A stretch of DNA of 18,567 nt, taken from positions 1 through 18,567 of IMG/VR virus record IMGVR_UViG_3300045988_002631. One strand, written 5' to 3'. The stretch comes from a virus. Of the stretch, positions 1 to 18,567 are shown piece by piece. Both the position numbers and the translations under genes were made by a program. Each line of letters begins with the position of its first letter. The stretch's first letter is position 1. The notes under the pieces were generated by a model. That model ran no database searches, was not told where the DNA came from, and saw nothing but the letters and a program-made list of their open reading frames with translations.

Positions 1-119
1 CCGACCGGTAGGTAGGTGTGTTTTAGTGTTTTGCTTTGTTTTGTTTTCGGGCGTGTTGTCCGTTTGTTTGTGTTATAGTATAATTATCCGCTTCAAGGGA
101 AAGGAAAATAAAATGATTA
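1..119. repeat. Left inverted terminal repeat, 119 bp, perfect
   Basis: nt 1-119 equal the reverse complement of 18449-18567 with no mismatch. Identity ends at nt 120 (a versus c). The extreme end reads CCGACCGGTAGGTAGGT. nt 11-50 of the top strand are almost pure G/T with repeated GTTTT units. Confidence 0.97.
56..84 (+). promoter_or_regulatory. Sigma-A/sigma-70-type early promoter inside the left ITR
   Basis: TTGTCC (56-61), 17-nt spacer, TATAAT (79-84). An overlapping TGTTATAGT extended -10 lies at 72-80. It is followed by RBS AAGGGAAAGGAAA (95-107) and ATG 113. Confidence 0.6.
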
Positions 120-2823: not shown

Positions 2824-4047
2824 TTAGAACGCGGGAGGATTAGACTTGCCACCCCACACACTCAGCAATGAATATGCCTGATTGTATCTCGTCGTATATG
2901 GCCCGAACGGATATGTGGCGAGAATATTGCTTTTGAGCTGTGCGAGGTTCGAAGCTTTCGGCACCTTCAACGCGTTCGCCGGTGATTGGTGGTATGCCGT
3001 CACCCAAAGAATCTGCATTTTCGTGTCACTATACTCTTTGGGGTATCCTGCGTAGTCTTCCGCGAACTGCTTGCGTTGTCCGTCACGTGACTCGTTCCGT
3101 CCCGCCCATGCGCGGAACGCTGCCGCTTCCGCCGAGGTGAGCGAACGTTTGAACGTGCCGCCCGACTCCATAAGCGATGCGATTTCAGGCGCGGACGCCT
3201 TGAACGTCGCATATCCGGCTGGGTCGGCGGCTTTCATGGCGTTGAGCACTTGCAGGCGGCGTTCGAAACTCCATTGCGCAATGCCAATACCTTGCAGGTT
3301 CGCCGCTTCGACAGCATCCCAGCGCAACCCCGCTTCGACTGTGCCAACCACGTAGAGGGCGTAGGAGTTCTCTGCCGACAAAGACACGGAGGGATGCGCC
3401 TGTCCGTTGTCGCTGGACGGCTGGGATTGTGACGCTTTTTCGGAAAAATTGTTGGCGGTTGTCTTGTAAAAGATGCGTGTCCGCGTTCCGGCATTATCGG
3501 ACTCGTGCAAGTAGAGGTTGTCGCCTTGCCAGTGGATCCATGCGCCACCGCGCGCGGAGTCGGGGGAACCGTGGCTATTGTCTCCTGTCGGGTTATTTTC
3601 CGTCGAGGTCGTGCCACCACCTTCGCCAAGTGCTTTGGGGTGAAGGTAGCCTAGGAATGCCGTCAAGTCGAAACTCATGCGTTGCGCGGGATTAGGGTTT
3701 TGCGATAAGACGGTGATCCGTCCGTTATGTACGCCATCCTCCACGACAATGCTCACGTGCGATCCGGTATGTTGGCTTGAGAAATTCCAAAAAGCCACGT
3801 CACCTTTTACGGGACTGTAGTCGGCGGGTTTCTTCTCGAAAATAGCAGCCATCTTCGCGTTGGTGGGGAAGCGCGAGTAGTTTCCTTCCGCATAGCCGGT
3901 TGGCGTGATGCAGTCACTTACGGACGCGCCGTATAAGTCCATGCAGTATTTGGCCCACAAGTCCCAGCATTGGGCCCCGTAGGCCCCGTCCATATCCCAG
4001 TAGCGGTCTTGAGTTTGTTTAACCCAATCATCAAAAGTAATAGCCAT
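2824..4047 (-). CDS. Tail-associated peptidoglycan hydrolase: N-terminal CHAP peptidase plus C-terminal lysozyme-like domain (functional analogue of phi29 gp13)
   Basis: 407 aa. CHAP signature: YGAQCWDLWAKYC (catalytic Cys) ... GDVAFW ... GSHVSIVV (His). A Gly/Ser/Thr/Asn-rich linker spans about residues 140-230. The C-terminus contains GIGIAQWSFERRLQVL, which I recall as typical of the phage tail lysozyme family (Phage_lysozyme2). It sits between the appendage and ATPase genes. Confidence 0.75.
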   Translation of the reverse strand: MAITFDDWVKQTQDRYWDMDGAYGAQCWDLWAKYCMDLYGASVSDCITPTGYAEGNYSRFPTNAKMAAIFEKKPADYSPVKGDVAFWNFSSQHTGSHVSIVVEDGVHNGRITVLSQNPNPAQRMSFDLTAFLGYLHPKALGEGGGTTSTENNPTGDNSHGSPDSARGGAWIHWQGDNLYLHESDNAGTRTRIFYKTTANNFSEKASQSQPSSDNGQAHPSVSLSAENSYALYVVGTVEAGLRWDAVEAANLQGIGIAQWSFERRLQVLNAMKAADPAGYATFKASAPEIASLMESGGTFKRSLTSAEAAAFRAWAGRNESRDGQRKQFAEDYAGYPKEYSDTKMQILWVTAYHQSPANALKVPKASNLAQLKSNILATYPFGPYTTRYNQAYSLLSVWGGKSNPPAF

Positions 4048-4088: not shown

Positions 4089-5999
4089 TCAGCTTTCGTA
4101 AAGATAGCCGTCAGAAGGGCGTACCCTGATTTTCCATGCGCTCTTAAAATTGCGATTGACACGCAAGTAGAGCCTGTACTTTTCGTCCGGCAAGGTGACG
4201 TTTTTGTTATCTCCTGTGGTTATGTCGCCATTCTGCCCATTGGAGTAGGCCCAAATGATGCGTGCATGATCTTTGTCGAGCACAAAGGACGCATGTACTG
4301 CGACACTATCATCATTGCCAACAGCGGGCGTCCTGGTGTCGGTCGAGTCAAAAGCCACCGTGTCTCTATTGTCTTGGTAGAAGCCACCGAAGGTGGCGCC
4401 ATTACGTCGCACGCCCGCGATAATGCCGACCTGTCCGGCCTTCTTGTTATCCTCCCACGGTTCGATATCCGTGCTTTCCTTGACGGCCACGACTGCGATG
4501 TTGCGTGTATCTCCAGCCGTACCGATCTGCACGCGGCTCATGAAGCCTTCGAGGTCGATTGACACCGGCAAAGTCACCTGTCCAACCTCAACGAGTTCGA
4601 CGGCCATCTGTCCGTCAGCGTCTCCGAGTTGGAATAGTCCGTCCGGCGCCAAGTACGTGCTTTTGGCTCTGTCAGCGTCCGAAATGTCAACATAAGCTTG
4701 CTGTCCGTACGCTTGGAAACGTGTTGGACGGATGAAAGTATTTTCGCCGGTGCTGAATGGCGTGAAGTTGCGGCACATCTGTTTTGTCGCATAATCCGGC
4801 CAATTGGAGGTGATGCCATCCACTCCAAGCGCGGTGACTCGCTCATATGCCACTGGGTCGTTGATGAGCCACGGATTGATTTTGACGCCCGCCGAATGCG
4901 CGGCGCTGACCATCGAAGAAGTGAGTTTGTCTTCATGCGGGTTGCCGCAGAAAATGCCGGCATTCTTCATGTCAGTCCAAGAGTGCGGCATGGCGTCCAC
5001 ATCCCACGTGTATGACACGTATTTCGCTCCGCCTTGCACTGCGCGGACGCATTGTTCCCAGCTGAACGAAGTCAATTCGTGGATTGCGGTTGCATTATAC
5101 TTGCGTAGCAGTTCCAGCATGGCGTCGGTGGTGGCGTTGTCCAGTGACTTGATTTCAAAATCAACCGGACTGTCACCCACGGCTTGGAGCACCTGCTCCA
5201 TGCTTACCGGCTTGCCGGTATTGCCGCCATGCACTTTAGCCTTGACCTCTCGGCTCATGAAGTCCTTGCAGGTGATGGCGGAGACATTGGCTGCGGAGCC
5301 TGTCATGGTGCGGGCGGTGGAGGTGTCGTGTAGGATTACGGGTATGCCGTCCGACGTGAGTTGCACGTCGATTTCTGGAACGTATCCGTGACGTACCGCC
5401 CACATGATTCCCTCCATTGTGTTTTCGGGGAAACGGTACGAGCCACGGTGCGCGTGGATAATGAAGTGCGAGTCAAGCTTGCTGTCTACACGCGCGTCCG
5501 CGAGTTCATCGACTTTGGCTGCGGTGTTGTCCAGCTTGGTTTTTTGTGCTGTGGCGTCAACGGTTGAGCTTGCTCCAAGTGCGGTGAGGATTGTTGTGTT
5601 GTTGTCGGCCTTGCTTATGGCGGTTACTGCGTCCGATCCCGCTTTGTCCCATTTGGTTTTATTGGCGGTGGCGTTCGCTGTGGTGTCAGCTCCCAACGCG
5701 GCAAGGATCGCCGTGTTGTTGTCGGCCTTACCTGCGGCAGCGGTAGCGTCCGACTCCGCCTTGTCCCACTTGTTTTTCGCTGCGGTGGCGCTATCGACGG
5801 TGTTGTCGCCAATTAGCGCCTTGACCACTTCCTCGTCATGTGTTTCACGCGACTCCATACCCTCAATGCGATTGAGGTGCGTTTCCAAAGTCGTATCAAT
5901 GGTGCGCATGGAGTTGTTGTAGCCGTCGCGCAAGTCTGCGGGGTCGGTGTCTCCGTAGAGGTTGAGGGCGTAATTATCGGTCTTGGTGTAGGTGGTCAT
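4089..5999 (-). CDS. Tail appendage/receptor-binding protein with glycerophosphodiester phosphodiesterase (GDPD) domain
   Basis: 636 aa. It has an N-terminal fibre-anchor motif (LNLYGDTDPADLRDGYNNSMRTID) and 2.4 copies of a 39-aa repeat. The GDPD signature is IIHAHRGSYRFPENTMEGI...PEIDVQLTSDGIPVILHD...GVDGITSNWPDY (about residues 178-403, nt 4791-5468). A beta-rich C-terminal domain of ~230 aa follows. Its ATG overlaps the upstream stop (ATGA). Confidence 0.85.
   Translation of the reverse strand: MTTYTKTDNYALNLYGDTDPADLRDGYNNSMRTIDTTLETHLNRIEGMESRETHDEEVVKALIGDNTVDSATAAKNKWDKAESDATAAAGKADNNTAILAALGADTTANATANKTKWDKAGSDAVTAISKADNNTTILTALGASSTVDATAQKTKLDNTAAKVDELADARVDSKLDSHFIIHAHRGSYRFPENTMEGIMWAVRHGYVPEIDVQLTSDGIPVILHDTSTARTMTGSAANVSAITCKDFMSREVKAKVHGGNTGKPVSMEQVLQAVGDSPVDFEIKSLDNATTDAMLELLRKYNATAIHELTSFSWEQCVRAVQGGAKYVSYTWDVDAMPHSWTDMKNAGIFCGNPHEDKLTSSMVSAAHSAGVKINPWLINDPVAYERVTALGVDGITSNWPDYATKQMCRNFTPFSTGENTFIRPTRFQAYGQQAYVDISDADRAKSTYLAPDGLFQLGDADGQMAVELVEVGQVTLPVSIDLEGFMSRVQIGTAGDTRNIAVVAVKESTDIEPWEDNKKAGQVGIIAGVRRNGATFGGFYQDNRDTVAFDSTDTRTPAVGNDDSVAVHASFVLDKDHARIIWAYSNGQNGDITTGDNKNVTLPDEKYRLYLRVNRNFKSAWKIRVRPSDGYLYES
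5505..5804 (-). repeat. In-frame tandem repeat, 117-bp (39-aa) unit, about 2.4 copies, in the appendage shaft
   Basis: Copy 1 is KNKWDKAESDATAAAGKADNNTAILAALGADTTANATAN. Copy 2 is KTKWDKAGSDAVTAISKADNNTTILTALGASSTVDATAQ. A partial third copy begins KTKLDNTAAK. Confidence 0.85.
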
Positions 6000-13073: not shown

Positions 13074-13082
13074 ATTATAACA
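13074..13082 (-). promoter_or_regulatory. Extended -10 promoter TGTTATAAT overlapping the polymerase stop codon
   Basis: The minus strand reads ATG GTC ATG TTA TAA T. The TAA stop of the polymerase lies inside the TATAAT hexamer. Confidence 0.45.
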
Positions 13083-14526
13083 TGACCATTGTCCCGTAAT
13101 CGTCTACGACTTGCGTTCCATGCCTAAACTCTTCGTAAGGAATGGGCTGGGAAAACATGTTTCCGGCCATACATACGTCAACCTCCCCGTCTTCTCTCCA
13201 CCCTTGATAACGGTTCATGCCCAGTATCGTCAATTTCTCATATCGTGCGGCGATCTTCCACTTCCCCAGCTCGGTCGAATGAATCTCACATGATCGCACG
13301 GGTTCCCAACCGCTCAATATGCACCCGTCCGTATTGGCGTACAATAGTCTATCCGCGTTCGCGTGACACACGGTCATAAGTTTGCGACGGGCGTAGGCGT
13401 TGACCCAAATAGGCACGGGGAGGTAATCGGTTTTCAGATTCGACTCTTCGCGTTGCGCTACATCCCAATCCAAGGTTATGCCGTCTTTCGAGAGTGGGAG
13501 CATGACGGCGCCTTTTGGCAGACTCGCCATTTTACCGACAAGCGCGTTCATGATTAGTTTCGCCATCTGCCGTTTCTCTCCCGTCGCCCGCTGTTTCAAT
13601 TCCCCCCATTCATCGATGAACGAGCGGAAAAACCCTTTGGAGCGGCGGAATTTCCACCCCCTGACATGCTTGTAGACGCTCACGTCATAATTCCTATAAA
13701 GTAGTTCCTGGTCAATGTCGGTGAGCACGCGTGTGACGTACCCGCGGGTTGAGGTGAGACGGTTCAGTCCGTAAATACTGCGATTGTCGAGTAGAAATGG
13801 GTAGCCGTTTGGTTTGAGTTCCGCGCGAAACGTGAGTTCGTCGCAATGCAACGGCATGTCATCGTCCTGCTTGTATTCGCCTTCGTATGGTTCCGGTTCA
13901 CCCCACGGCAACCACTCATCCCGCAAAATGCTCGGATACATGCTATTGCAGTCAACGTCGATAGCCTTGCCATAAGTCCCCTCCTTGGCTACCATGAAAC
14001 CGCCGATGTAGGCGTCATGCAATGACTTTTTGGTTTCGGCTTCGAGTTGTGGGAATTTGTCGTAATACCATTTCCACTCGCCGGACGCGAACGCCTCCAT
14101 GCTCGCACCACCTGCGGTGATCTTGCACAAACCGCGGTTGTCGTATTCTCTCAGGATGTCGAGCAGTTGCGTGCCGGTCATGGTAAGCTTACAGTTTTCC
14201 CGCAGAAGATTCGATATGTCGAAGAAACGTGTGGAATTTTCGCGGTCGATGCGCACTGTGAAGCTGAAGAACTTGCCTTTTTTCGACACTATCGCATCCC
14301 AACTCAAGTTAGAGTTGTGTTCGTTGTGGGGGAGTGAGTGTACGACGTGCGCGATAAACGAGTCCAGTAGTTCGGGTTTAGTCACGTAGACGGTGAGTTT
14401 GCCGCCTGACATGATGGACGCCAAAAGACTCTTAGGCGCGGTGACGTCACGCAGGACGGTGCCGTCCGTAAAGCGTATGACGTTATCCGCACACCATAAT
14501 CCCACCCTGTTATCTTGCATGGTCAT
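13075..14526 (-). CDS. Protein-primed family-B DNA polymerase (phi29 gp2-like), compact and divergent
   Basis: 483 aa. Long colinear matches to remembered phi29 DNAP: ITAGGASMEAF/MTAGSDSLKGF, DAYIGGF/YAYRGGF, DCNSMYPS/DVNSLYPA (motif A), LPWGEPEPYEGEY..DDMPLH/LPYGEPIVFEGKY..EDYPLH, and FIDEWGELK/FIDKWTYIK. Further matches are KLIMNALVGK/KLMLNSLYGK (motif B), VNAYARR/ITAWARY, YANTDG/YCDTDS (motif C) and LGKW...NRY/LGYW...KTY. Confidence 0.93.
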   Translation of the reverse strand: MTMQDNRVGLWCADNVIRFTDGTVLRDVTAPKSLLASIMSGGKLTVYVTKPELLDSFIAHVVHSLPHNEHNSNLSWDAIVSKKGKFFSFTVRIDRENSTRFFDISNLLRENCKLTMTGTQLLDILREYDNRGLCKITAGGASMEAFASGEWKWYYDKFPQLEAETKKSLHDAYIGGFMVAKEGTYGKAIDVDCNSMYPSILRDEWLPWGEPEPYEGEYKQDDDMPLHCDELTFRAELKPNGYPFLLDNRSIYGLNRLTSTRGYVTRVLTDIDQELLYRNYDVSVYKHVRGWKFRRSKGFFRSFIDEWGELKQRATGEKRQMAKLIMNALVGKMASLPKGAVMLPLSKDGITLDWDVAQREESNLKTDYLPVPIWVNAYARRKLMTVCHANADRLLYANTDGCILSGWEPVRSCEIHSTELGKWKIAARYEKLTILGMNRYQGWREDGEVDVCMAGNMFSQPIPYEEFRHGTQVVDDYGTMVML

Positions 14527-14552
14527 GGTAACTTCCCTTGCTTACTCGTCCG

Positions 14553-15521
14553 CTACTTTTCCAGTGCGCCCGCTTCCGTCATCCACCTATCGAACTGCTT
14601 GCGTGAACGCTGATAGCCCCTGCTATTATCGCGAAATATCGACGTGAAACCGTGACGCACGGGATCGTATACCGTCCAGTCGAACACGATTCGTGGGGCG
14701 TCCGTCTGTTCAATAAACGCCCTCTTTTGCGCTGCCGACAGTTGGCGGAATCGTTTCAAACGTTTCGAGCCGAGCGTGGTGGCCAAGATTTTTTCAAACA
14801 CCTCATAACGTCCGCGTGACATGTATGACGGCCATTCATGATCACCATACAATTCTTTGCCCTGTTTGCCCGTTTTCCGCTTTTTGGACGGTTTGCGCTT
14901 GCGTTTCTGTTCGGTGCGCAATCCCAGTATTTCGGCGGCATCGTGCATCTGATCCAGCAGTTCGTTGCGATGCCCGCTTTCCAGTTGGGAGCGCACGAAT
15001 GCTTCGTCTGACAGCACGTTCGTCATTCGCAGAAAATCAGTGAGCTTCGATGGAATGATCTGATTACGTCCGAAACCCTCACCGGTGGTTCCGGTGATTT
15101 CAGCCACGCGCTGGTCGAACACGCTACGTTGTGGCATGGCTTGAACCTTGTTCCACTCGTTGATTTTCCGTCGTGCCGCATTGATTTTCCGCTGCTGCTG
15201 TCGCAAGAGTTTACGTCGTTTCGCCACCGGCTCCGCCTGGATTTGCGCGTCTGTGATGGGTGTGCGCCCTGCGAACATGATGTCTTTTTTCGTCGGTTTC
15301 TCCACAGCGGCGGCGCGGTATGGGGTTGCTTTCGCTTCCGCTATGGCCTGTTTCTTCTGCCGCTCCCACTCTTTGCCCAAGGTTTTGGCGATGTTGACCA
15401 GTTGTTTGTCCGCGGTTTTGGCGAGATTCGAGTGGGAGTAAGCGCCAAGCTGTTTGATGTTGCGGGCGGCGCGGGCTTGCGCGGCCTGACGTGCCTTGAC
15501 ATGCTTTTGCTTTCGAGACAT
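14553..15521 (-). CDS. Putative terminal protein (replication primer)
   Basis: 322 aa, very basic. It lies immediately upstream of the polymerase gene, as phi29 gene 3 lies next to gene 2. It has Lys/Arg clusters (KRRKLLRQQQRKINAARRKI and QKRKRKPSKKRKTGKQGK). I see no sequence similarity to phi29 TP, so the call rests on synteny, charge and the ITR-bounded genome. Confidence 0.55.
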   Translation of the reverse strand: MSRKQKHVKARQAAQARAARNIKQLGAYSHSNLAKTADKQLVNIAKTLGKEWERQKKQAIAEAKATPYRAAAVEKPTKKDIMFAGRTPITDAQIQAEPVAKRRKLLRQQQRKINAARRKINEWNKVQAMPQRSVFDQRVAEITGTTGEGFGRNQIIPSKLTDFLRMTNVLSDEAFVRSQLESGHRNELLDQMHDAAEILGLRTEQKRKRKPSKKRKTGKQGKELYGDHEWPSYMSRGRYEVFEKILATTLGSKRLKRFRQLSAAQKRAFIEQTDAPRIVFDWTVYDPVRHGFTSIFRDNSRGYQRSRKQFDRWMTEAGALEK

Positions 15522-15603: not shown

Positions 15604-16041
15604 TCACTTGGTTCCCTCGTCCACCGGCTCGATGCTGAAAAACTTGAAACCACGACGGGAACGACGTTCCACCACCTTGATGCACAGCGGTTCCGTCCAA
15701 GTGTTCGGCGTGCCGAAGATCCCGAACATGGTGTTAAGTCCCGCGGCGAGAGTCGGGGAGGTGGCCGCGTACGCCTTGTTGTCGTCGGTCACGATAATGA
15801 CGCGCACGGTATTGGAGATTTCGCCCGTCTGGTCGTCGGTCACCTGCACGGCCTGCGCGACTGCGTTCGTCATGTTCAGCGGCTCGTTGAGGTGTTCGTC
15901 GAGCTTTTCCGCGTTCTGCAATGCGCTGTAGAGCTTGATTTTGCCTTCGCGGGTAGAGGTGTCGATGAAGTGCTGGACGGTGCCGAGTTCGGTGTTTTCG
16001 GTGTTGAATGCTACGAGTGCGGTATTGTTGTTGTTTTCCAT
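15604..16041 (-). CDS. Single-stranded DNA-binding protein, phi29 p5-like
   Basis: 145 aa. Colinear with remembered phi29 p5: MENNNN/MENTN, EGKIKLYSALQ/EGQIKIFNAQ, NAVAQAVQVTDDQTGE/NAIAQYKQVSDTYGD, AYAATSPTLA/LYSAISKTVA and CIKVVERRSRRGFKFFSIE/FKVKVVQGTSSKGNVFFSLQ. RBS is AGGAAAGG. It sits between the p6-like and TP genes. Confidence 0.6.
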   Translation of the reverse strand: MENNNNTALVAFNTENTELGTVQHFIDTSTREGKIKLYSALQNAEKLDEHLNEPLNMTNAVAQAVQVTDDQTGEISNTVRVIIVTDDNKAYAATSPTLAAGLNTMFGIFGTPNTWTEPLCIKVVERRSRRGFKFFSIEPVDEGTK

Positions 16042-16097: not shown

Positions 16098-16106
16098 TTT
16101 ATATCA
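16098..16106 (-). promoter_or_regulatory. Extended -10-like element TGATATAAA overlapping the upstream stop codon
   Basis: The minus strand reads GTG TGA TATAAA. The TGA stop of the p6-like gene supplies the TG of the extended -10. Confidence 0.35.
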
Positions 16107-16421
16107 CACGTCTTCATTATTTTCAACGTCGGCGTGTCGATTTTTTGTGTGTTCTTCGGGGTTCCATTCTTGCGGCTCCCCGAAAGTCGCATACTTGTAA
16201 AAAGTTTCCTCATTCATTGAGACTTTTTGCGAAAAAATGTTGATGGAACGCGGAATGAAATTAGGAAACAGTTTCTTCGCGCGAATCGAATATGCGCGAG
16301 CGTCCTTAAGGCGTCCGTCGATAACGTGTTCAGCTTCCATAAAGTCACCGTCCACCAATTCCATGCCCTTTAGCACGGCATAGACGCGCGTTCGGAAAAT
16401 GTCGGTTTTGGTTCTAGCCAT
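16104..16421 (-). CDS. Putative histone-like dsDNA-binding protein, phi29 p6-like
   Basis: 105 aa from ATG 16421, with GGGGAGG upstream. It begins MARTKTD. Matches to remembered p6 (104 aa): LVDGD (p6 MVDGE), DGRLKDARAYSIRAKKLF (p6 GNLTMEQAQWRMKRKY), and FYKYATF (p6 FLEVATV). The C-terminal tail is acidic. It sits upstream of the SSB gene, as gene 6 precedes gene 5 in phi29. Confidence 0.45.
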   Translation of the reverse strand: MARTKTDIFRTRVYAVLKGMELVDGDFMEAEHVIDGRLKDARAYSIRAKKLFPNFIPRSINIFSQKVSMNEETFYKYATFGEPQEWNPEEHTKNRHADVENNEDV

Positions 16422-16422
16422 T

Positions 16423-16941
16423 TTACCTCCCCTGCAGTAAGATTTTTTGCAATTCATCGTCATTATACCGTGTCGTGTCCAGTCTGTCAAAATTTTTAAA
16501 CACGGCGATAATCAGGTTTTGCGCTTGAGGGTTGTCGAAAATCGTGCAACAGTCGTATGACGTGCCGCCCTTGACGGCACAGACCGCACACCATGCAATC
16601 AGGTTAGACGGATTGATGGAACCGTCCAAATATTCGACATCGAACGTGCGGGATAGGGCGGCAGAGAGTCCGTCCCACATAGTCAGACTGCCGCATATCT
16701 GAGACACGGTTATAACCGCTTGCGTAAACCATGCGCTAGGTGCGTCCCGCCACAACTCGCACAGCATGTTCACGGCACGGCAGCACGTTTCAAAATCACC
16801 ATACCCCATGTCGAAACGCTTCAAATTCAGCTCACGCTTATGGCCTTTTGTGGCGCGGACGATACGCTTGCTTTCCATAATGGCGTCGTCAAAATCGCGC
16901 ATACGATAAATCGGACGCCTATCATCACCGCGCCTAAACAT
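16423..16941 (-). CDS. Hypothetical early protein, 172 aa, Cys-rich
   Basis: ATG 16941 has GAGGAA 8 nt upstream and overlaps the upstream gene by 8 nt (ATGTTTAG). The protein contains 9 Cys. No family recognised. Confidence 0.6.
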   Translation of the reverse strand: MFRRGDDRRPIYRMRDFDDAIMESKRIVRATKGHKRELNLKRFDMGYGDFETCCRAVNMLCELWRDAPSAWFTQAVITVSQICGSLTMWDGLSAALSRTFDVEYLDGSINPSNLIAWCAVCAVKGGTSYDCCTIFDNPQAQNLIIAVFKNFDRLDTTRYNDDELQKILLQGR

Positions 16942-17110
16942 AATACCGTTCCTCAACGCGGAAATAGCTGATATTCTCCGTATGAGACCGAATGGCCGCC
17001 CACCGTTTAATCAGATCCGCCGCGTCCTTGTAAGAGGGCGCGTAGCCGACCTCGATAGGCGGCTTGCGCACATCCCTCAAGTATGCGAGAGCCACGAAAG
17101 TGCTATACAT
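16934..17110 (-). CDS. Hypothetical early protein, 58 aa
   Basis: Not in the ORF track. ATG 17110 lies 2 nt after the upstream stop. The protein is MYSTFVALAYLRDVRKPPIEVGYAPSYKDAADLIKRWAAIRSHTENISYFRVEERYYV. It fills an otherwise empty gap in a tightly packed operon. Confidence 0.5.
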   Translation of the reverse strand: MYSTFVALAYLRDVRKPPIEVGYAPSYKDAADLIKRWAAIRSHTENISYFRVEERYYV

Positions 17111-17112
17111 GC

Positions 17113-17316
17113 CTAAAACTCCAATTCGTCCACGAAATCACTGTCACCATACAACCACATAGCCGCCCACAACTGCCGGTCAGGGCAACGTTTCGGAGGA
17201 TCAGTGGCGCTCCGCTTATGATGTCTCCCAGCCCAAAACGCGCGCAAACACCAATAACTATCGGCGTCCGGACACGTGCCGCATATCCACGAATGTATCC
17301 AACCACGAAAATACAC
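17113..17316 (-). CDS. Hypothetical early protein, 67 aa, Trp-rich with four Cys (CxxC...C...C)
   Basis: GTG 17316 lies 2 nt after the upstream stop, with GGAGAGG 8 nt upstream. The tail is acidic (GDSDFVDELEF). It was chosen over the overlapping frame 17103-17306 because of gene packing and the RBS. Confidence 0.45.
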   Translation of the reverse strand: MYFRGWIHSWICGTCPDADSYWCLRAFWAGRHHKRSATDPPKRCPDRQLWAAMWLYGDSDFVDELEF

Positions 17317-17318
17317 GG

Positions 17319-17564
17319 CTAATTCCTCTCCATTAAAGGCGTGCGGGCAATGTCAATGGCGTCCAACATGAGGTCCGCAATCTGATAACTATCAGCCGCG
17401 TCATATGCGCATGATGCCGTGGAGTCGCTAAACCCGGTTGGGGTGCGGAACCGAACAGTATACCGAAGCTCGTACCGCTGACCACGAGGACAATACCACA
17501 GGCGCACACCACCGCCCGCAAACGGCGACGCAAACACGGCAACATTCATATCATTATAAGCCAT
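17319..17564 (-). CDS. Hypothetical early protein, 81 aa
   Basis: ATG 17564 lies 1 nt after the upstream stop (TGAGATG). No family recognised. Confidence 0.55.
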   Translation of the reverse strand: MAYNDMNVAVFASPFAGGGVRLWYCPRGQRYELRYTVRFRTPTGFSDSTASCAYDAADSYQIADLMLDAIDIARTPLMERN

Positions 17565-17565
17565 C

Positions 17566-17733
17566 TCAGGCCCCCCTTACTATGAAAACCAACACAATAG
17601 CCACGCCCACAGTAAGCATAGCAAAAAAACAAAAGGCATCACGCATATCACGCGGCGCTTTGTAAAACACCGTAGCAACCATCACGAGAAACAGTACAGA
17701 AAGAATGCAGACGGCAACAATCATGCCAACCAT
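17566..17733 (-). CDS. Small membrane protein, 55 aa, two predicted transmembrane helices
   Basis: Not in the ORF track. ATG 17733 has GAGGTG upstream. The protein is MVGMIVAVCILSVLFLVMVATVFYKAPRDMRDAFCFFAMLTVGVAIVLVFIVRGA, a hairpin topology with a basic loop. Confidence 0.55.
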   Translation of the reverse strand: MVGMIVAVCILSVLFLVMVATVFYKAPRDMRDAFCFFAMLTVGVAIVLVFIVRGA

Positions 17734-17742
17734 TATAACACC

Positions 17743-17982
17743 TCAAAACATATGGAAATCTCTGTAAAAATACCTGAAATCATAATCACGGCAGTACTTA
17801 ATACCGTCATCCAAGTCAATAAAATCTGCGATAGAATCAAACTTGCCACAAAGTCCGCAATACAGCTGAAATCGATAATCAACCCCAGCAGGACCACTAA
17901 AATCACACGGCGCTTCACGCCAACGGAACTTCTGATCCATCCTCAGATACTCGTCAAAAACAGTGAAATAATGCCATTCCAT
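17743..17982 (-). CDS. Hypothetical early protein, 79 aa, aromatic/Asp-rich with four Cys
   Basis: The start is taken as ATG 17982 (GGAGG 7 nt upstream) rather than 18057. Cys spacing is C-x15-CxxC-x18-C. No family recognised. Confidence 0.55.
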   Translation of the reverse strand: MEWHYFTVFDEYLRMDQKFRWREAPCDFSGPAGVDYRFQLYCGLCGKFDSIADFIDLDDGIKYCRDYDFRYFYRDFHMF

Positions 17983-18011
17983 AACACGACCTCCAATCAA
18001 ACCAAAGACAC

Positions 18012-18080
18012 TCAAACCATACCAAAAACGATAACAACGCCAAGAATGCACGCGCAAATGACGAAAACAGAAGTGAACAT
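18012..18080 (-). CDS. 22-aa hydrophobic mini-protein (single transmembrane segment)
   Basis: Not in the ORF track. ATG 18080 has GGGAG 6 nt upstream. The protein is MFTSVFVICACILGVVIVFGMV. It fills the gap between two early genes. Confidence 0.4.
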   Translation of the reverse strand: MFTSVFVICACILGVVIVFGMV

Positions 18081-18110
18081 GTCATTCTCCCTAAAGTTGA
18101 TTATCACCGT

Positions 18111-18455
18111 TCAAGCTTTAACCAACTCATAACAATCACCCTTAACCACATCAAACCGACCAAGCTTAAACCCATAATCGGCAAGGAAATCGTTGGCGGA
18201 ATACTCCCAATCAATGCCGCAAACAGCCCCGCAAATGCCAGTAATCCGTTCTGCATCATTATCATGGAATAGATCATAATCGTCATCCACCCAAAGGTCA
18301 AAATACCAAGTATCATCCCCAGTTTGTTGCCACATGCCAAAACCGGTGATATTATCGGCAAATATCAACGAAGTCCAACCCTCATCACCCTTAACGACAA
18401 CCAAGTCAACCGGTATTGCGTTATCGGTGTAAACGTCAACCCCTGTTGTAATCAT
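18111..18455 (-). CDS. Hyperacidic, Trp-rich 114-aa immediate-early protein, function unknown
   Basis: ATG 18455 lies inside the right ITR with the same promoter and RBS as the left gene. The protein begins MITTGVDVYTDN and has 19 Asp + 4 Glu against 4 Lys + 2 Arg, plus 5 Trp. No family recognised. Confidence 0.7.
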   Translation of the reverse strand: MITTGVDVYTDNAIPVDLVVVKGDEGWTSLIFADNITGFGMWQQTGDDTWYFDLWVDDDYDLFHDNDAERITGICGAVCGIDWEYSANDFLADYGFKLGRFDVVKGDCYELVKA

Positions 18456-18567
18456 TTTATTTTCCTTTCCCTTGAAGCGGATAATTATACTATAACACAA
18501 ACAAACGGACAACACGCCCGAAAACAAAACAAAGCAAAACACTAAAACACACCTACCTACCGGTCGG
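18449..18567. repeat. Right inverted terminal repeat, 119 bp, perfect
   Basis: Reverse complement is identical to nt 1-119. It includes the promoter, RBS, ATG and the next 4 nt of the terminal gene. Confidence 0.97.
18484..18512 (-). promoter_or_regulatory. Identical early promoter inside the right ITR, firing leftward
   Basis: Mirror copy of 56-84: -35 at 18507-18512 and -10 at 18484-18489 on the minus strand. It drives the whole minus-strand early block, starting at ATG 18455. Confidence 0.6.

What the first reader, a model, noticed from the sequence alone, without database searches (positions are those of the whole stretch)
13075..14526. Compact protein-primed polymerase with non-canonical catalytic motifs and no recognisable ExoI DxE
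Homology to phi29 DNAP is unambiguous across the palm, TPR1, fingers and TPR2 regions. Several near-invariant residues differ, however. Motif C reads YANTDG (nt 13324-13341, checked codon by codon: TAC GCC AAT ACG GAC GGG), so the first Asp of YxDTDS is Asn. Motif B reads KLIMNALVGK (nt 13531-13560), where Ser and Tyr of NSxYG become Ala and Val. The KxY motif reads NRY. In the N-terminal domain, phi29 has ExoI CDFET and this protein has WCADNVI, with no Glu. ExoII NLKFDGAF aligns with KPELLDSF, with no Asn. ExoIII YxxxD aligns with TQLLD, with no Tyr. The exonuclease region is also about 58 aa shorter. This suggests a proofreading-deficient or mechanistically altered replicase.
Basis: partly seen in the sequence, partly recalled or inferred. 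Interest (0 to 1): 0.62.

Follow-up and report, generated by a model that had tools for sequence, protein, structure and literature searches.

The report
Proofreading-less phi29-type phage DNA polymerase
A small gut phage of Bifidobacterium copies its genome with a phi29-like DNA polymerase that keeps only a shell of its proofreading domain and has changed several "invariant" active-site residues, and a whole clade that includes cultured phages shares this design.

Summary
ORF 13075-14526(-) encodes a 483-aa protein-primed family-B polymerase. It matches Pfam DNA_pol_B_2 at 102 bits and phi29 DNAP at E 3e-42. The AF2 model has pLDDT 90 and TM 0.84 to 2PYJ.

Motif C reads YANTDG, motif B reads KLIMNALVGK and KxY reads NRY, at exactly the stated coordinates. 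All three are fixed in 121 of 121 close homologues.

A profile-profile alignment (97.9 % probability) shows the N-terminal 135 aa are a shrunken exonuclease fold:
- The ExoI strand is missing.
- The ExoII Asn and Asp are replaced.
- The Kx2h and ExoIII segment is deleted.

This domain is still under strong purifying selection (dN/dS 0.08). The complete 18.6-kb ITR genome encodes no other recognisable exonuclease.

The gene belongs to a monophyletic clade of 454-496-aa polymerases. Its members come from Bifidobacterium podophages, including cultured BP1, BD811P1-3 and BadAztec. Every member lacks the exonuclease residues, the motif-B Tyr and the KxY Lys, and has a shortened thumb.

Inside the clade, motif-C Asp/Asn co-varies without exception with the KxY position. 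An extra Asp in motif A occurs only with Asn.

Best reading: this is an active replicase with no proofreading and a rewired primer-terminus site. It is a new variant of a known kind. I found no description of it in the literature searched. The scan has already noted other proofreading-less phi29-type polymerases on unrelated DNA.

The parts
13075..14526 (-). Protein-primed family-B DNA polymerase gene (483 aa, P0001)
14122..14526 (-). Vestigial 3'-5' exonuclease domain (residues 1-135). The fold is kept, the ExoI strand is absent, ExoII is substituted, and the Kx2h/ExoIII segment is deleted.
   Evidence: hhalign gives 97.9 % probability and E 3e-12. dN/dS is 0.083. No acidic position is conserved across the clade.
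14353..14388 (-). ExoII-equivalent stretch YVTKPELLDSFI (residues 47-58). phi29 N62 corresponds to K50 and D66 to L53.
13633..13917 (-). TPR1 insertion (about residues 204-298), a hallmark of protein-primed PolB.
   Evidence: Aligned to phi29 261-358; model.
13930..13965 (-). Motif A AIDVDCNSMYPS (residues 188-199). It holds the catalytic D192 and the steric-gate Y197, plus an extra Asp D190 that occurs only in enzymes with Asn in motif C.
13531..13560 (-). Motif B KLIMNALVGK (residues 323-332). K323, N327 and G331 are kept. phi29 S388 is Ala and Y390 is Val.
13414..13524 (-). TPR2 insertion (about residues 335-371), with a predicted beta-hairpin at 341-357.
13387..13407 (-). Tx2G/AR motif WVNAYAR (residues 374-380). 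phi29 T434 is Asn and R438 is kept.
13324..13341 (-). Motif C YANTDG (residues 396-401). The first Asp is Asn (N398). The metal-ligand Asp D400 is kept.
13207..13215 (-). KxY motif reads NRY (residues 438-440). phi29 K498 is Asn.
13078..13170 (-). Shortened thumb (residues 453-483, 31 aa against 46 in phi29). It lacks the K555/K557/Q560 loop and the C-terminal T571-K575 strand.
14553..15521 (-). Putative terminal protein (322 aa, basic N-terminus, mostly alpha-helical), sitting between the SSB and polymerase genes.
   Evidence: The position is conserved in all clade loci. No family, sequence or fold match to known TPs was found, so the assignment is inferred.
15604..16041 (-). Single-stranded DNA-binding protein
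   Evidence: phrog_6243, E 1.6e-19.
1..119 (.). Left inverted terminal repeat (119 bp, 100 % complementary to the right one)
   Evidence: The record is classed as ITR and 100 % complete.
18449..18567 (.). Right inverted terminal repeat

Best explanation
This is the sole replicative DNA polymerase of a complete phi29-like podophage with inverted terminal repeats, whose host is probably Bifidobacterium. The enzyme is active: the two metal-binding Asp residues, the steric-gate Tyr, the motif-B Lys and Asn, TPR1 and TPR2 are all intact. Its 3'-5' proofreading nuclease was dismantled in evolution. The N-terminal domain survives only as a shortened scaffold. I infer that this scaffold still helps form the TP/DNA tunnel needed for priming, processivity and strand displacement.

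Together with the nuclease, the clade lost three things that in proofreading B-family polymerases sense primer-terminus geometry and hand mismatches to the exonuclease site. These are the motif-B Tyr (phi29 Y390, Val here), the KxY Lys (K498, Asn here) and part of the thumb.

In the window's sub-clade the first Asp of motif C is Asn, and this change is coupled to two others. The KxY position is small and uncharged (Asn, Gly, Ser or Thr). In most members a new Asp sits two residues before the motif-A catalytic Asp. I infer that this is a compensated re-wiring of the third-carboxylate and Lys network, not an inactivation.

Shown here: the sequence states, their conservation, the covariation, fold retention, purifying selection, and the absence of another recognisable exonuclease gene. 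Inferred: loss of exonuclease activity, retained polymerase activity, lowered fidelity or easier mismatch extension, and physical contact among the co-varying positions.
For: Homology and fold.

Exonuclease residues absent by profile alignment. Also by multiple alignments. No acidic column is conserved in the N-domain of 22 clade representatives.

No upstream extension is possible.

No other exonuclease was found by PHROG, Pfam or six-frame RNase_T and PolB_exo2 searches of the 100 %-complete record.

The variant residues are 121/121 conserved. dN/dS is 0.083 for the N-domain and 0.057 for the pol domain.

The short clade is monophyletic: support 100/100, SH-aLRT 99, and 97. It includes cultured phages BP1, BD811P1-3 and BadAztec.

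K498 is Lys in every representative outside the clade and never inside it. D456N occurs only inside the clade, with at least 3 changes on the tree.

Among 188 clade sequences, D398 always pairs with R, Q or H at 438, and N398 always pairs with N, G, S or T, with no exceptions. Asp at motif A -2 occurs in 7 of 10 Asn-type and 0 of 133 Asp-type representatives. Within the clade the counts are 151 N+D, 34 D+S and 0 D+D.

Literature: the first Asp of motif C points away from the metals, and archaeal PolB2 lacks both it and the exonuclease motifs yet is a robust polymerase and mismatch extender (PMC8764526). K498/K706/K967 contacts the n-2 base and governs pol/exo partitioning (PMC4333401). Loss of the Y390 aromatic ring lowers misinsertion discrimination from 3e5 to 3e2 (PMC1976434).
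Against: No biochemistry exists, so exonuclease loss and polymerase activity are inferred from sequence.

In phi29, RB69 and Pol alpha, single substitutions at the positions changed here (first motif-C Asp, K498/K706) cripple synthesis. Activity in this enzyme therefore requires compensation that I could not verify, because the tools do not expose model coordinates.

The link between exonuclease loss and motif-B Tyr loss is not statistically established. The raw counts are 30/40 against 9/103, but there are only 4-7 independent contrasts, with sign-test median p 0.5.

The covariations rest on about 3 independent changes.

The terminal-protein gene is assigned by position only.

A trans-acting host or unrecognised phage exonuclease cannot be excluded by HMM searches.
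Confidence: 0.8

Rival explanations
1. Proofreading is kept but supplied in trans, either by a host DnaQ-type exonuclease or by one of the unassigned small early phage proteins.
For: Several early ORFs (16104-18542) match no family, so a novel nuclease cannot be excluded. Trans proofreading subunits exist in bacterial Pol III (established knowledge).
Against: PHROG, Pfam and NCBIfam searches and six-frame RNase_T and PolB_exo2 searches of the complete genome found no exonuclease. The simultaneous loss of K498, Y390 and part of the thumb suggests the hand-over circuit itself was abandoned. No precedent is known for protein-primed PolBs.
Confidence: 0.08
2. The N-terminal domain holds a cryptic, non-canonical nuclease site, for example one using D14, D21, D55 or D103.
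For: The domain is under strong purifying selection. D14 is conserved 118/121 within the close clade. D103 is at least 90 % conserved in alignment A2.
Against: Across the 22 representatives of the wider short clade, no acidic column reaches 70 % conservation (D14 is 13/22). Only N106 and T137 are invariant. D103 corresponds to a residue next to the (S/T)Lx2h DNA-binding motif that is also present in proofreading enzymes. The strand and helix that carry three of the four DEDD carboxylates are physically missing.
Confidence: 0.05
3. The enzyme lacks proofreading but is not error-prone. Like archaeal PolB2 (Dpo2), it keeps good insertion fidelity, and the altered residues serve another purpose such as mismatch or lesion extension, metal preference or TP handling.
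For: Dpo2 lacks the exonuclease motifs and the first motif-C Asp yet misincorporates at only 1e-4 to 1e-5 (PMC8764526). An 18.6-kb genome tolerates such rates. The steric gate and the dNTP-binding Lys and Asn are intact.
Against: phi29 Y390S in an exo-minus background loses about 1000-fold in discrimination (PMC1976434). Here the equivalent residue is Val, Ile, Thr or Ala in every clade member.
Confidence: 0.3
4. The gene is a decaying or inactive polymerase relic and the phage relies on host replication.
For: Three positions that mutagenesis has shown to be critical are substituted.
Against: dN/dS is 0.06-0.08. The length is fixed at 483 aa in more than 120 clusters. The metal ligands are invariant. 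The genome is linear with ITRs and has the SSB-TP-pol module. Related phages are cultured and lytic.
Confidence: 0.02

Closest known systems
Bacteriophage phi29 DNA polymerase (gp2; PDB 1XHX, 2PYJ, 2EX3) and the Salasmaviridae, Guelinviridae and Av-1-type pPolBs
   Same: It has the same fold over its whole length (TMq 0.84). It shares TPR1, TPR2, the YxGG motif, motif A, the motif-B Lys and Asn, the second Asp of motif C and the KxY Tyr. It sits in the same SSB-TP-pol gene module on a linear ITR genome of about 18 kb.
   Different: It is 92 aa shorter. The ExoI strand is absent, ExoII is substituted, and the Kx2h/ExoIII segment is deleted. The substitutions are Y390 to V, S388 to A, T434 to N, D456 to N, S459 to G, K498 to N and K529 to C. 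The thumb is 15 aa shorter. An extra Asp lies at motif A -2.
DNA polymerases of cultured Bifidobacterium podophages BP1 (PQ571273), BD811P1-3 (OP172658-60) and BadAztec/BadAargau (NC_048858/9)
   Same: They belong to the same clade. BP1 is 88 % identical, BD811P 76-78 % and BadAztec 31 %. All lack the exonuclease residues, Y390 and K498. BP1 and BD811P also have Y[A/M]NTDG, NALVGK and NRY.
   Different: They are annotated only as 'DNA polymerase' or 'hypothetical protein'. The annotated starts in BP1 and BD811P2 cut off 12 and 38 conserved N-terminal residues. BadAztec keeps YADTDS and has RRY.
Archaeal PolB2 (Sulfolobus Dpo2)
   Same: It is a B-family polymerase with degenerate or deleted Exo motifs and without the first Asp of motif C. 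It was once thought inactive but was shown to be a robust, exonuclease-free polymerase and mismatch extender (PMC8764526).
   Different: It is RNA/DNA-primed, serves in repair or translesion synthesis rather than replication, and is distributive. Its motif C reads HxxxD. It is unrelated within PolB, and the resemblance is convergent.
Mavirus/virophage and PLV pPolB with an exonuclease-domain remnant (PMC11161782)
   Same: [quoted passage not shown]
   Different: It comes from eukaryotic viruses and is fused to TP and vOTU domains. The loss is accompanied by gain of a helicase (S3H or S1H). The phage genome here shows no helicase, and the polymerase keeps TPR2.
Laboratory exo-minus phi29 DNAP (D12A/D66A) and the mutants Y390S, K498T and D456 variants
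   Same: The same positions are affected.
   Different: The laboratory mutants carry single changes in an otherwise wild-type scaffold and are often crippled. Here the changes are natural, combined, fixed and co-varying.

Membership tests
Protein-primed family-B DNA polymerase (Pfam DNA_pol_B_2, phi29 gp2 type) | Significant match to the family profile and to the phi29 DNAP sequence and structure | tested here: met
   PF03175 scores 102.3 bits against a cut-off of 25.8, but only over profile positions 176-449. phrog_1907 E 2e-43. 1XHX E 3e-42. Foldseek to 2PYJ E 7e-40, TMq 0.84.
Protein-primed family-B DNA polymerase (Pfam DNA_pol_B_2, phi29 gp2 type) | Polymerase catalytic core: motif-A Asp, second Asp of motif C, motif-B Lys and Asn, steric-gate Tyr | tested here: met
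   D192, D400, K323, N327 and Y197 are invariant.
Protein-primed family-B DNA polymerase (Pfam DNA_pol_B_2, phi29 gp2 type) | Canonical consensus motifs YxDTDS, Kx3NSxYG and KxY | tested here: not met
   The motifs read YANTDG, KLIMNALVGK and NRY. Outside the short clade, D456 and K498 are 100 % conserved among the representatives.
Protein-primed family-B DNA polymerase (Pfam DNA_pol_B_2, phi29 gp2 type) | TPR1 and TPR2 insertions specific to protein-primed PolBs | tested here: met
   The alignment is continuous across phi29 261-358 and 398-420. A beta-hairpin is predicted at 341-357. TPR2 block.
Protein-primed family-B DNA polymerase (Pfam DNA_pol_B_2, phi29 gp2 type) | Linear genome with inverted terminal repeats and an adjacent terminal-protein gene | tested here: inconclusive
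   The 119-bp perfect ITRs are met. The 322-aa ORF upstream is a TP candidate by position only, with no HMM, hhalign or fold match to known TPs.
Protein-primed family-B DNA polymerase (Pfam DNA_pol_B_2, phi29 gp2 type) | Protein-primed initiation and strand-displacement synthesis demonstrated | not testable with these tools
   This needs biochemistry with the purified polymerase and TP.
DEDDy (DnaQ-like) 3'-5' proofreading exonuclease domain of PolB | ExoI DxE | tested here: not met
   phi29 residues 1-14 have no counterpart. A stop codon 6 codons upstream of the ATG rules out an extension.
DEDDy (DnaQ-like) 3'-5' proofreading exonuclease domain of PolB | ExoII Nx2-3(F/Y)D | tested here: not met
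   N62 corresponds to K50 and D66 to L53. The column is variable within the clade.
DEDDy (DnaQ-like) 3'-5' proofreading exonuclease domain of PolB | ExoIII Yx3D and the Kx2h Lys | tested here: not met
   A gap of about 35 aa removes phi29 K143, Y165 and D169.
DEDDy (DnaQ-like) 3'-5' proofreading exonuclease domain of PolB | RNase-H-like exonuclease fold | tested here: inconclusive
   hhalign gives 97.9 % probability to the phi29 exonuclease domain. The whole-chain TMq is 0.84 and the N-domain pLDDT is about 90. No per-residue superposition was available.
Archaeal PolB2-type exonuclease-free PolB | Phylogenetic membership in PolB2 and an HxxxD motif C | tested here: not met
   The enzyme nests inside the phi29-like pPolBs and motif C reads YANTDG. 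The resemblance is functional only.

The most novel reading that the evidence does not exclude
The window's sub-clade has relocated the 'third carboxylate' of the B-family active site from motif C (Asp to Asn) to motif A (the new D190) and has discarded the minor-groove-sensing Lys. This would create a distinct active-site geometry, possibly Mn2+-preferring, that makes the phage an obligate high-mutation-rate replicator. It would be a DNA phage lineage that has traded fidelity for evolvability, with no helicase or trans exonuclease to compensate.
Probability: 0.2. Interest if true: 0.8.

Novelty: new variant of a known kind. Interest (0 to 1): 0.6.

Why it matters
phi29 DNA polymerase is the textbook and biotechnological model of a processive, strand-displacing, proofreading replicase. 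Decades of mutagenesis have marked D456, Y390, K498 and the Exo motifs as essential or near-essential.

A widespread natural lineage lacks all of them at once, and it includes cultured phages that can be tested.
- It offers a ready-made experiment on epistasis in a polymerase active site.
- It is a counter-example to the proposal that exonuclease loss in pPolBs goes together with helicase gain.
- It provides a candidate natural exo-minus strand-displacing enzyme.
- It allows a test of how much replication fidelity a small dsDNA phage of the human gut actually needs.

Tried and rejected
(1) I looked for a hidden ExoI strand. An in-frame stop lies 6 codons upstream of the ATG, and the upstream extensions open in some relatives are not conserved.

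(2) I looked for a separate exonuclease gene. PHROG, Pfam, NCBIfam and six-frame searches with PF00929 and PF10108 found none.

(3) I tried to identify the 322-aa upstream ORF as a terminal protein. The AF2 model (pLDDT 75) has no PDB match at E below 1. hhalign against the phi29 and Curtobacterium-phage TPs gave probabilities below 2 %. It remains a positional assignment.

(4) I tested statistically whether exonuclease loss is coupled to motif-B Tyr or T434 loss. There are too few independent contrasts and the result is not significant.

(5) I searched the literature for a description of exonuclease loss in phi29-like or Bifidobacterium phage polymerases and for a D621-K706 or D456-K498 contact. 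Nothing was found in the held library.

(6) Residue-level superposition on 2PYJ was not possible, because the tools do not expose model or PDB coordinates.

(7) Read-level diversity was not attempted, because runs from people are excluded from the read tools.
Full report
**What the window is.** The 18,567-bp window is a complete linear phage genome with perfect 119-bp inverted terminal repeats. Its record is classed as ITR-bearing and 100 % complete. Nearly all genes lie on the minus strand, in phi29-like order:
- SSB (phrog_6243);
- an unassigned basic 322-aa protein;
- the DNA polymerase;
- the major head protein, tail, connector and collar proteins;
- an appendage with phosphodiesterase hits;
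- lysins, a phi29-type packaging ATPase and a holin.

The nearest records are cultured Bifidobacterium podophages. BP1, from B. pseudocatenulatum, has about 80 % nucleotide identity over 73 % of the genome. BD811P1-3 come from B. dentium.

**Checking the observation.** ORF 13075-14526(-) gives a 483-aa protein. An in-frame TAA lies six codons upstream of the ATG, with no start codon between them, so the N-terminus is not an annotation artefact. The stated coordinates of YANTDG, KLIMNALVGK and NRY are exact.
- Pfam DNA_pol_B_2 matches at 102 bits, but only from profile position 176 on, so the exonuclease half of the profile is unmatched.
- phmmer finds phi29 DNAP at E 3e-42 over query 130-438.
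- An AlphaFold2 model built from a 35-sequence alignment has pLDDT 90 and pTM 0.87. The N-terminal domain is also confident.
- The model superposes on phi29 DNAP over its whole length (2PYJ, E 7e-40, TMq 0.84).

**The exonuclease domain.** I took the N-terminal 142 residues of 28 short-clade sequences and aligned them, profile against profile, to the exonuclease domains of phi29 and the full-length relatives that keep an ExoI DxET motif. They are homologous (97.9 % probability, E 3e-12).
- phi29 residues 1-14, the strand carrying D12 and E14, have no counterpart.
- N62 and D66 align with K50 and L53.
- A gap of about 35 residues removes K143, Y165 and D169.

The register was off, but the conclusion holds. 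Across 22 representatives of the wider clade, no acidic column of this domain is conserved. Only N106 and T137 are invariant. The domain is nonetheless under purifying selection as strong as the polymerase domain: dN/dS is 0.083 against 0.057 across 20 genomes. It is therefore a functional scaffold, not decaying sequence. No other exonuclease is detectable in the genome, and no helicase was found either.

**How widespread it is.** More than 120 clusters at 90 % identity, nearly all 483 aa long, occur in metagenomes. N398, V330, N438 and N376 are each 121/121 among them.

An exhaustive HMMER search of 1.8 billion representatives shows about 20 clusters at 50 % identity, 454-496 aa long, whose N-terminal domain is homologous to this one. 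The remaining relatives are 540-630 aa and match only from residue 125 onward. On polymerase-domain trees the short proteins form one clade, with support 100/100, 99 and 97. BadAztec and BadAargau from honey-bee Bifidobacterium belong to it. All short-clade loci examined have 50-58 % GC.

Every clade member shows the same set of losses:
- the exonuclease carboxylates;
- the Kx2h/ExoIII segment;
- about 15 residues of the thumb;
- the motif-B Tyr, replaced by V, I, T or A;
- the KxY Lys, replaced by R, Q, H, N, G, S or T.

Among the 143 representatives aligned, 103 keep all four exonuclease carboxylates. Loss has happened at least 7 times independently, so exonuclease decay recurs in this family. 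Earlier scan notes on unrelated genomes report the same. By contrast, loss of K498 and the D456N change are confined to this one clade.

**Covariation.** D456N changes state at least three times within the clade. In 188 clade sequences there are no exceptions to this rule: Asp at 398 goes with R, Q or H at the KxY position, and Asn at 398 goes with N, G, S or T. An Asp two residues before the motif-A catalytic Asp (D190 here) occurs in 7 of 10 Asn-type and 0 of 133 Asp-type representatives. Within the clade the counts are 151 N+D, 34 D+S, 3 N+S/Y and 0 D+D. This points to a coupled network among motif C, KxY and motif A. It rests on few independent events, and I could not check it against coordinates.

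**Mechanistic reading.** The published work used here says the following:
- The second motif-C Asp binds the metal, while the first points away from the metals. Mutating the first Asp still cripples phi29, Pol alpha and RB69 enzymes.
- Archaeal PolB2 lacks both that Asp and the exonuclease motifs, and is a robust polymerase that extends mismatches (PMC8764526).
- K498, equivalent to K706 in RB69 and K967 in Pol epsilon, hydrogen-bonds the n-2 base and controls switching between the polymerase and exonuclease sites. K706A and K498T are nearly dead (PMC4333401).
- The motif-B Tyr senses the nascent or terminal base pair. phi29 Y390S in an exo-minus background drops discrimination from 3e5 to 3e2 (PMC1976434; PMC3564110).

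The clade has therefore lost the nuclease together with the sensors that would route a mismatched terminus to it. I infer an active, strand-displacing replicase without proofreading that tolerates or extends mismatches, because TPR2 and the N-domain scaffold are kept and no helicase is present. In the window's sub-clade the Asp/Lys pair has been replaced by a neutral pair plus a relocated carboxylate. Fidelity may be markedly lower. Alternatively, as in Dpo2, it may be maintained at the insertion step. The sequence alone cannot decide between these.

**Comparison and novelty.** The enzyme is a genuine member of the phi29-type pPolB family by homology, fold, TPR1/TPR2 and genome context. It fails the family's proofreading feature and three consensus motifs.

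Exonuclease loss in a pPolB has been described for mavirus and PLVs, where it comes with helicase gain (PMC11161782). Here there is no helicase. Neither the review of phi29-like phages nor the BP1 isolation paper mentions the feature, and I found no paper describing it. The records I fetched annotate the gene as 'DNA polymerase' or 'hypothetical protein'. I class it as a new variant of a known kind.

**Limits.** There is no enzymology. No residue-level structural superposition was possible. The terminal-protein assignment is positional only. The coupling between exonuclease loss and Tyr loss is not significant after allowing for phylogeny.

Noticed in passing
L001 (BP1) 4813-4848; L002 (BD811P2) 3273-3386: The annotated polymerase starts in BP1 (locus 4849) and BD811P2 (locus 3387) are probably too far downstream. 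The 12 and 38 residues upstream of them are conserved with the window's N-terminus (tblastn covers query residues 1-483).
   Followed up: partly
window 14527-14555: The TAA stop of the putative terminal-protein gene is in the same frame as the polymerase ATG, with five codons between them. Relatives BP1 and BD811P1 have different spacing (29 and 28 nt), so this looks coincidental rather than a read-through fusion.
   Followed up: partly
L027 773-2221: One close homologue of the polymerase gene in an IMG/VR contig (75 % identical) carries an internal stop codon. This could be a sequencing error or a defective genome.
   Followed up: no
L033-L038; P0122, P0140: A sister group within the short clade has also replaced the motif-C Tyr. 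It reads S-I-N-T-D-G, or N-C-N-T-D-G in P0140, so only T-D of YxDTDS remains there.
   Followed up: partly
representatives P0158, P0184, P0190, P0203, P0229, P0244, P0253, P0258, P0262, P0268: Several polymerases outside the short clade (510-584 aa) also lack some or all exonuclease carboxylates while keeping K498 and D456. On the tree exonuclease loss needs at least 7 changes in all, so there are further independent losses outside the short clade.
   Followed up: partly
window 1-119 and 18449-18567: The genome ends read 5'-CCGACCGGTAGGTAGG..., with a short internal reiteration (GGTAGGTAGG). This may matter for sliding-back initiation. The ITR of 119 bp is much longer than the 6 bp of phi29.
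   Followed up: no
window 4089-5999: The 636-aa tail appendage matches phage phosphodiesterase families (phrog_17803, 13515, 19279) as well as a tail-fibre family. This agrees with a receptor-degrading enzyme on the appendage.
   Followed up: no
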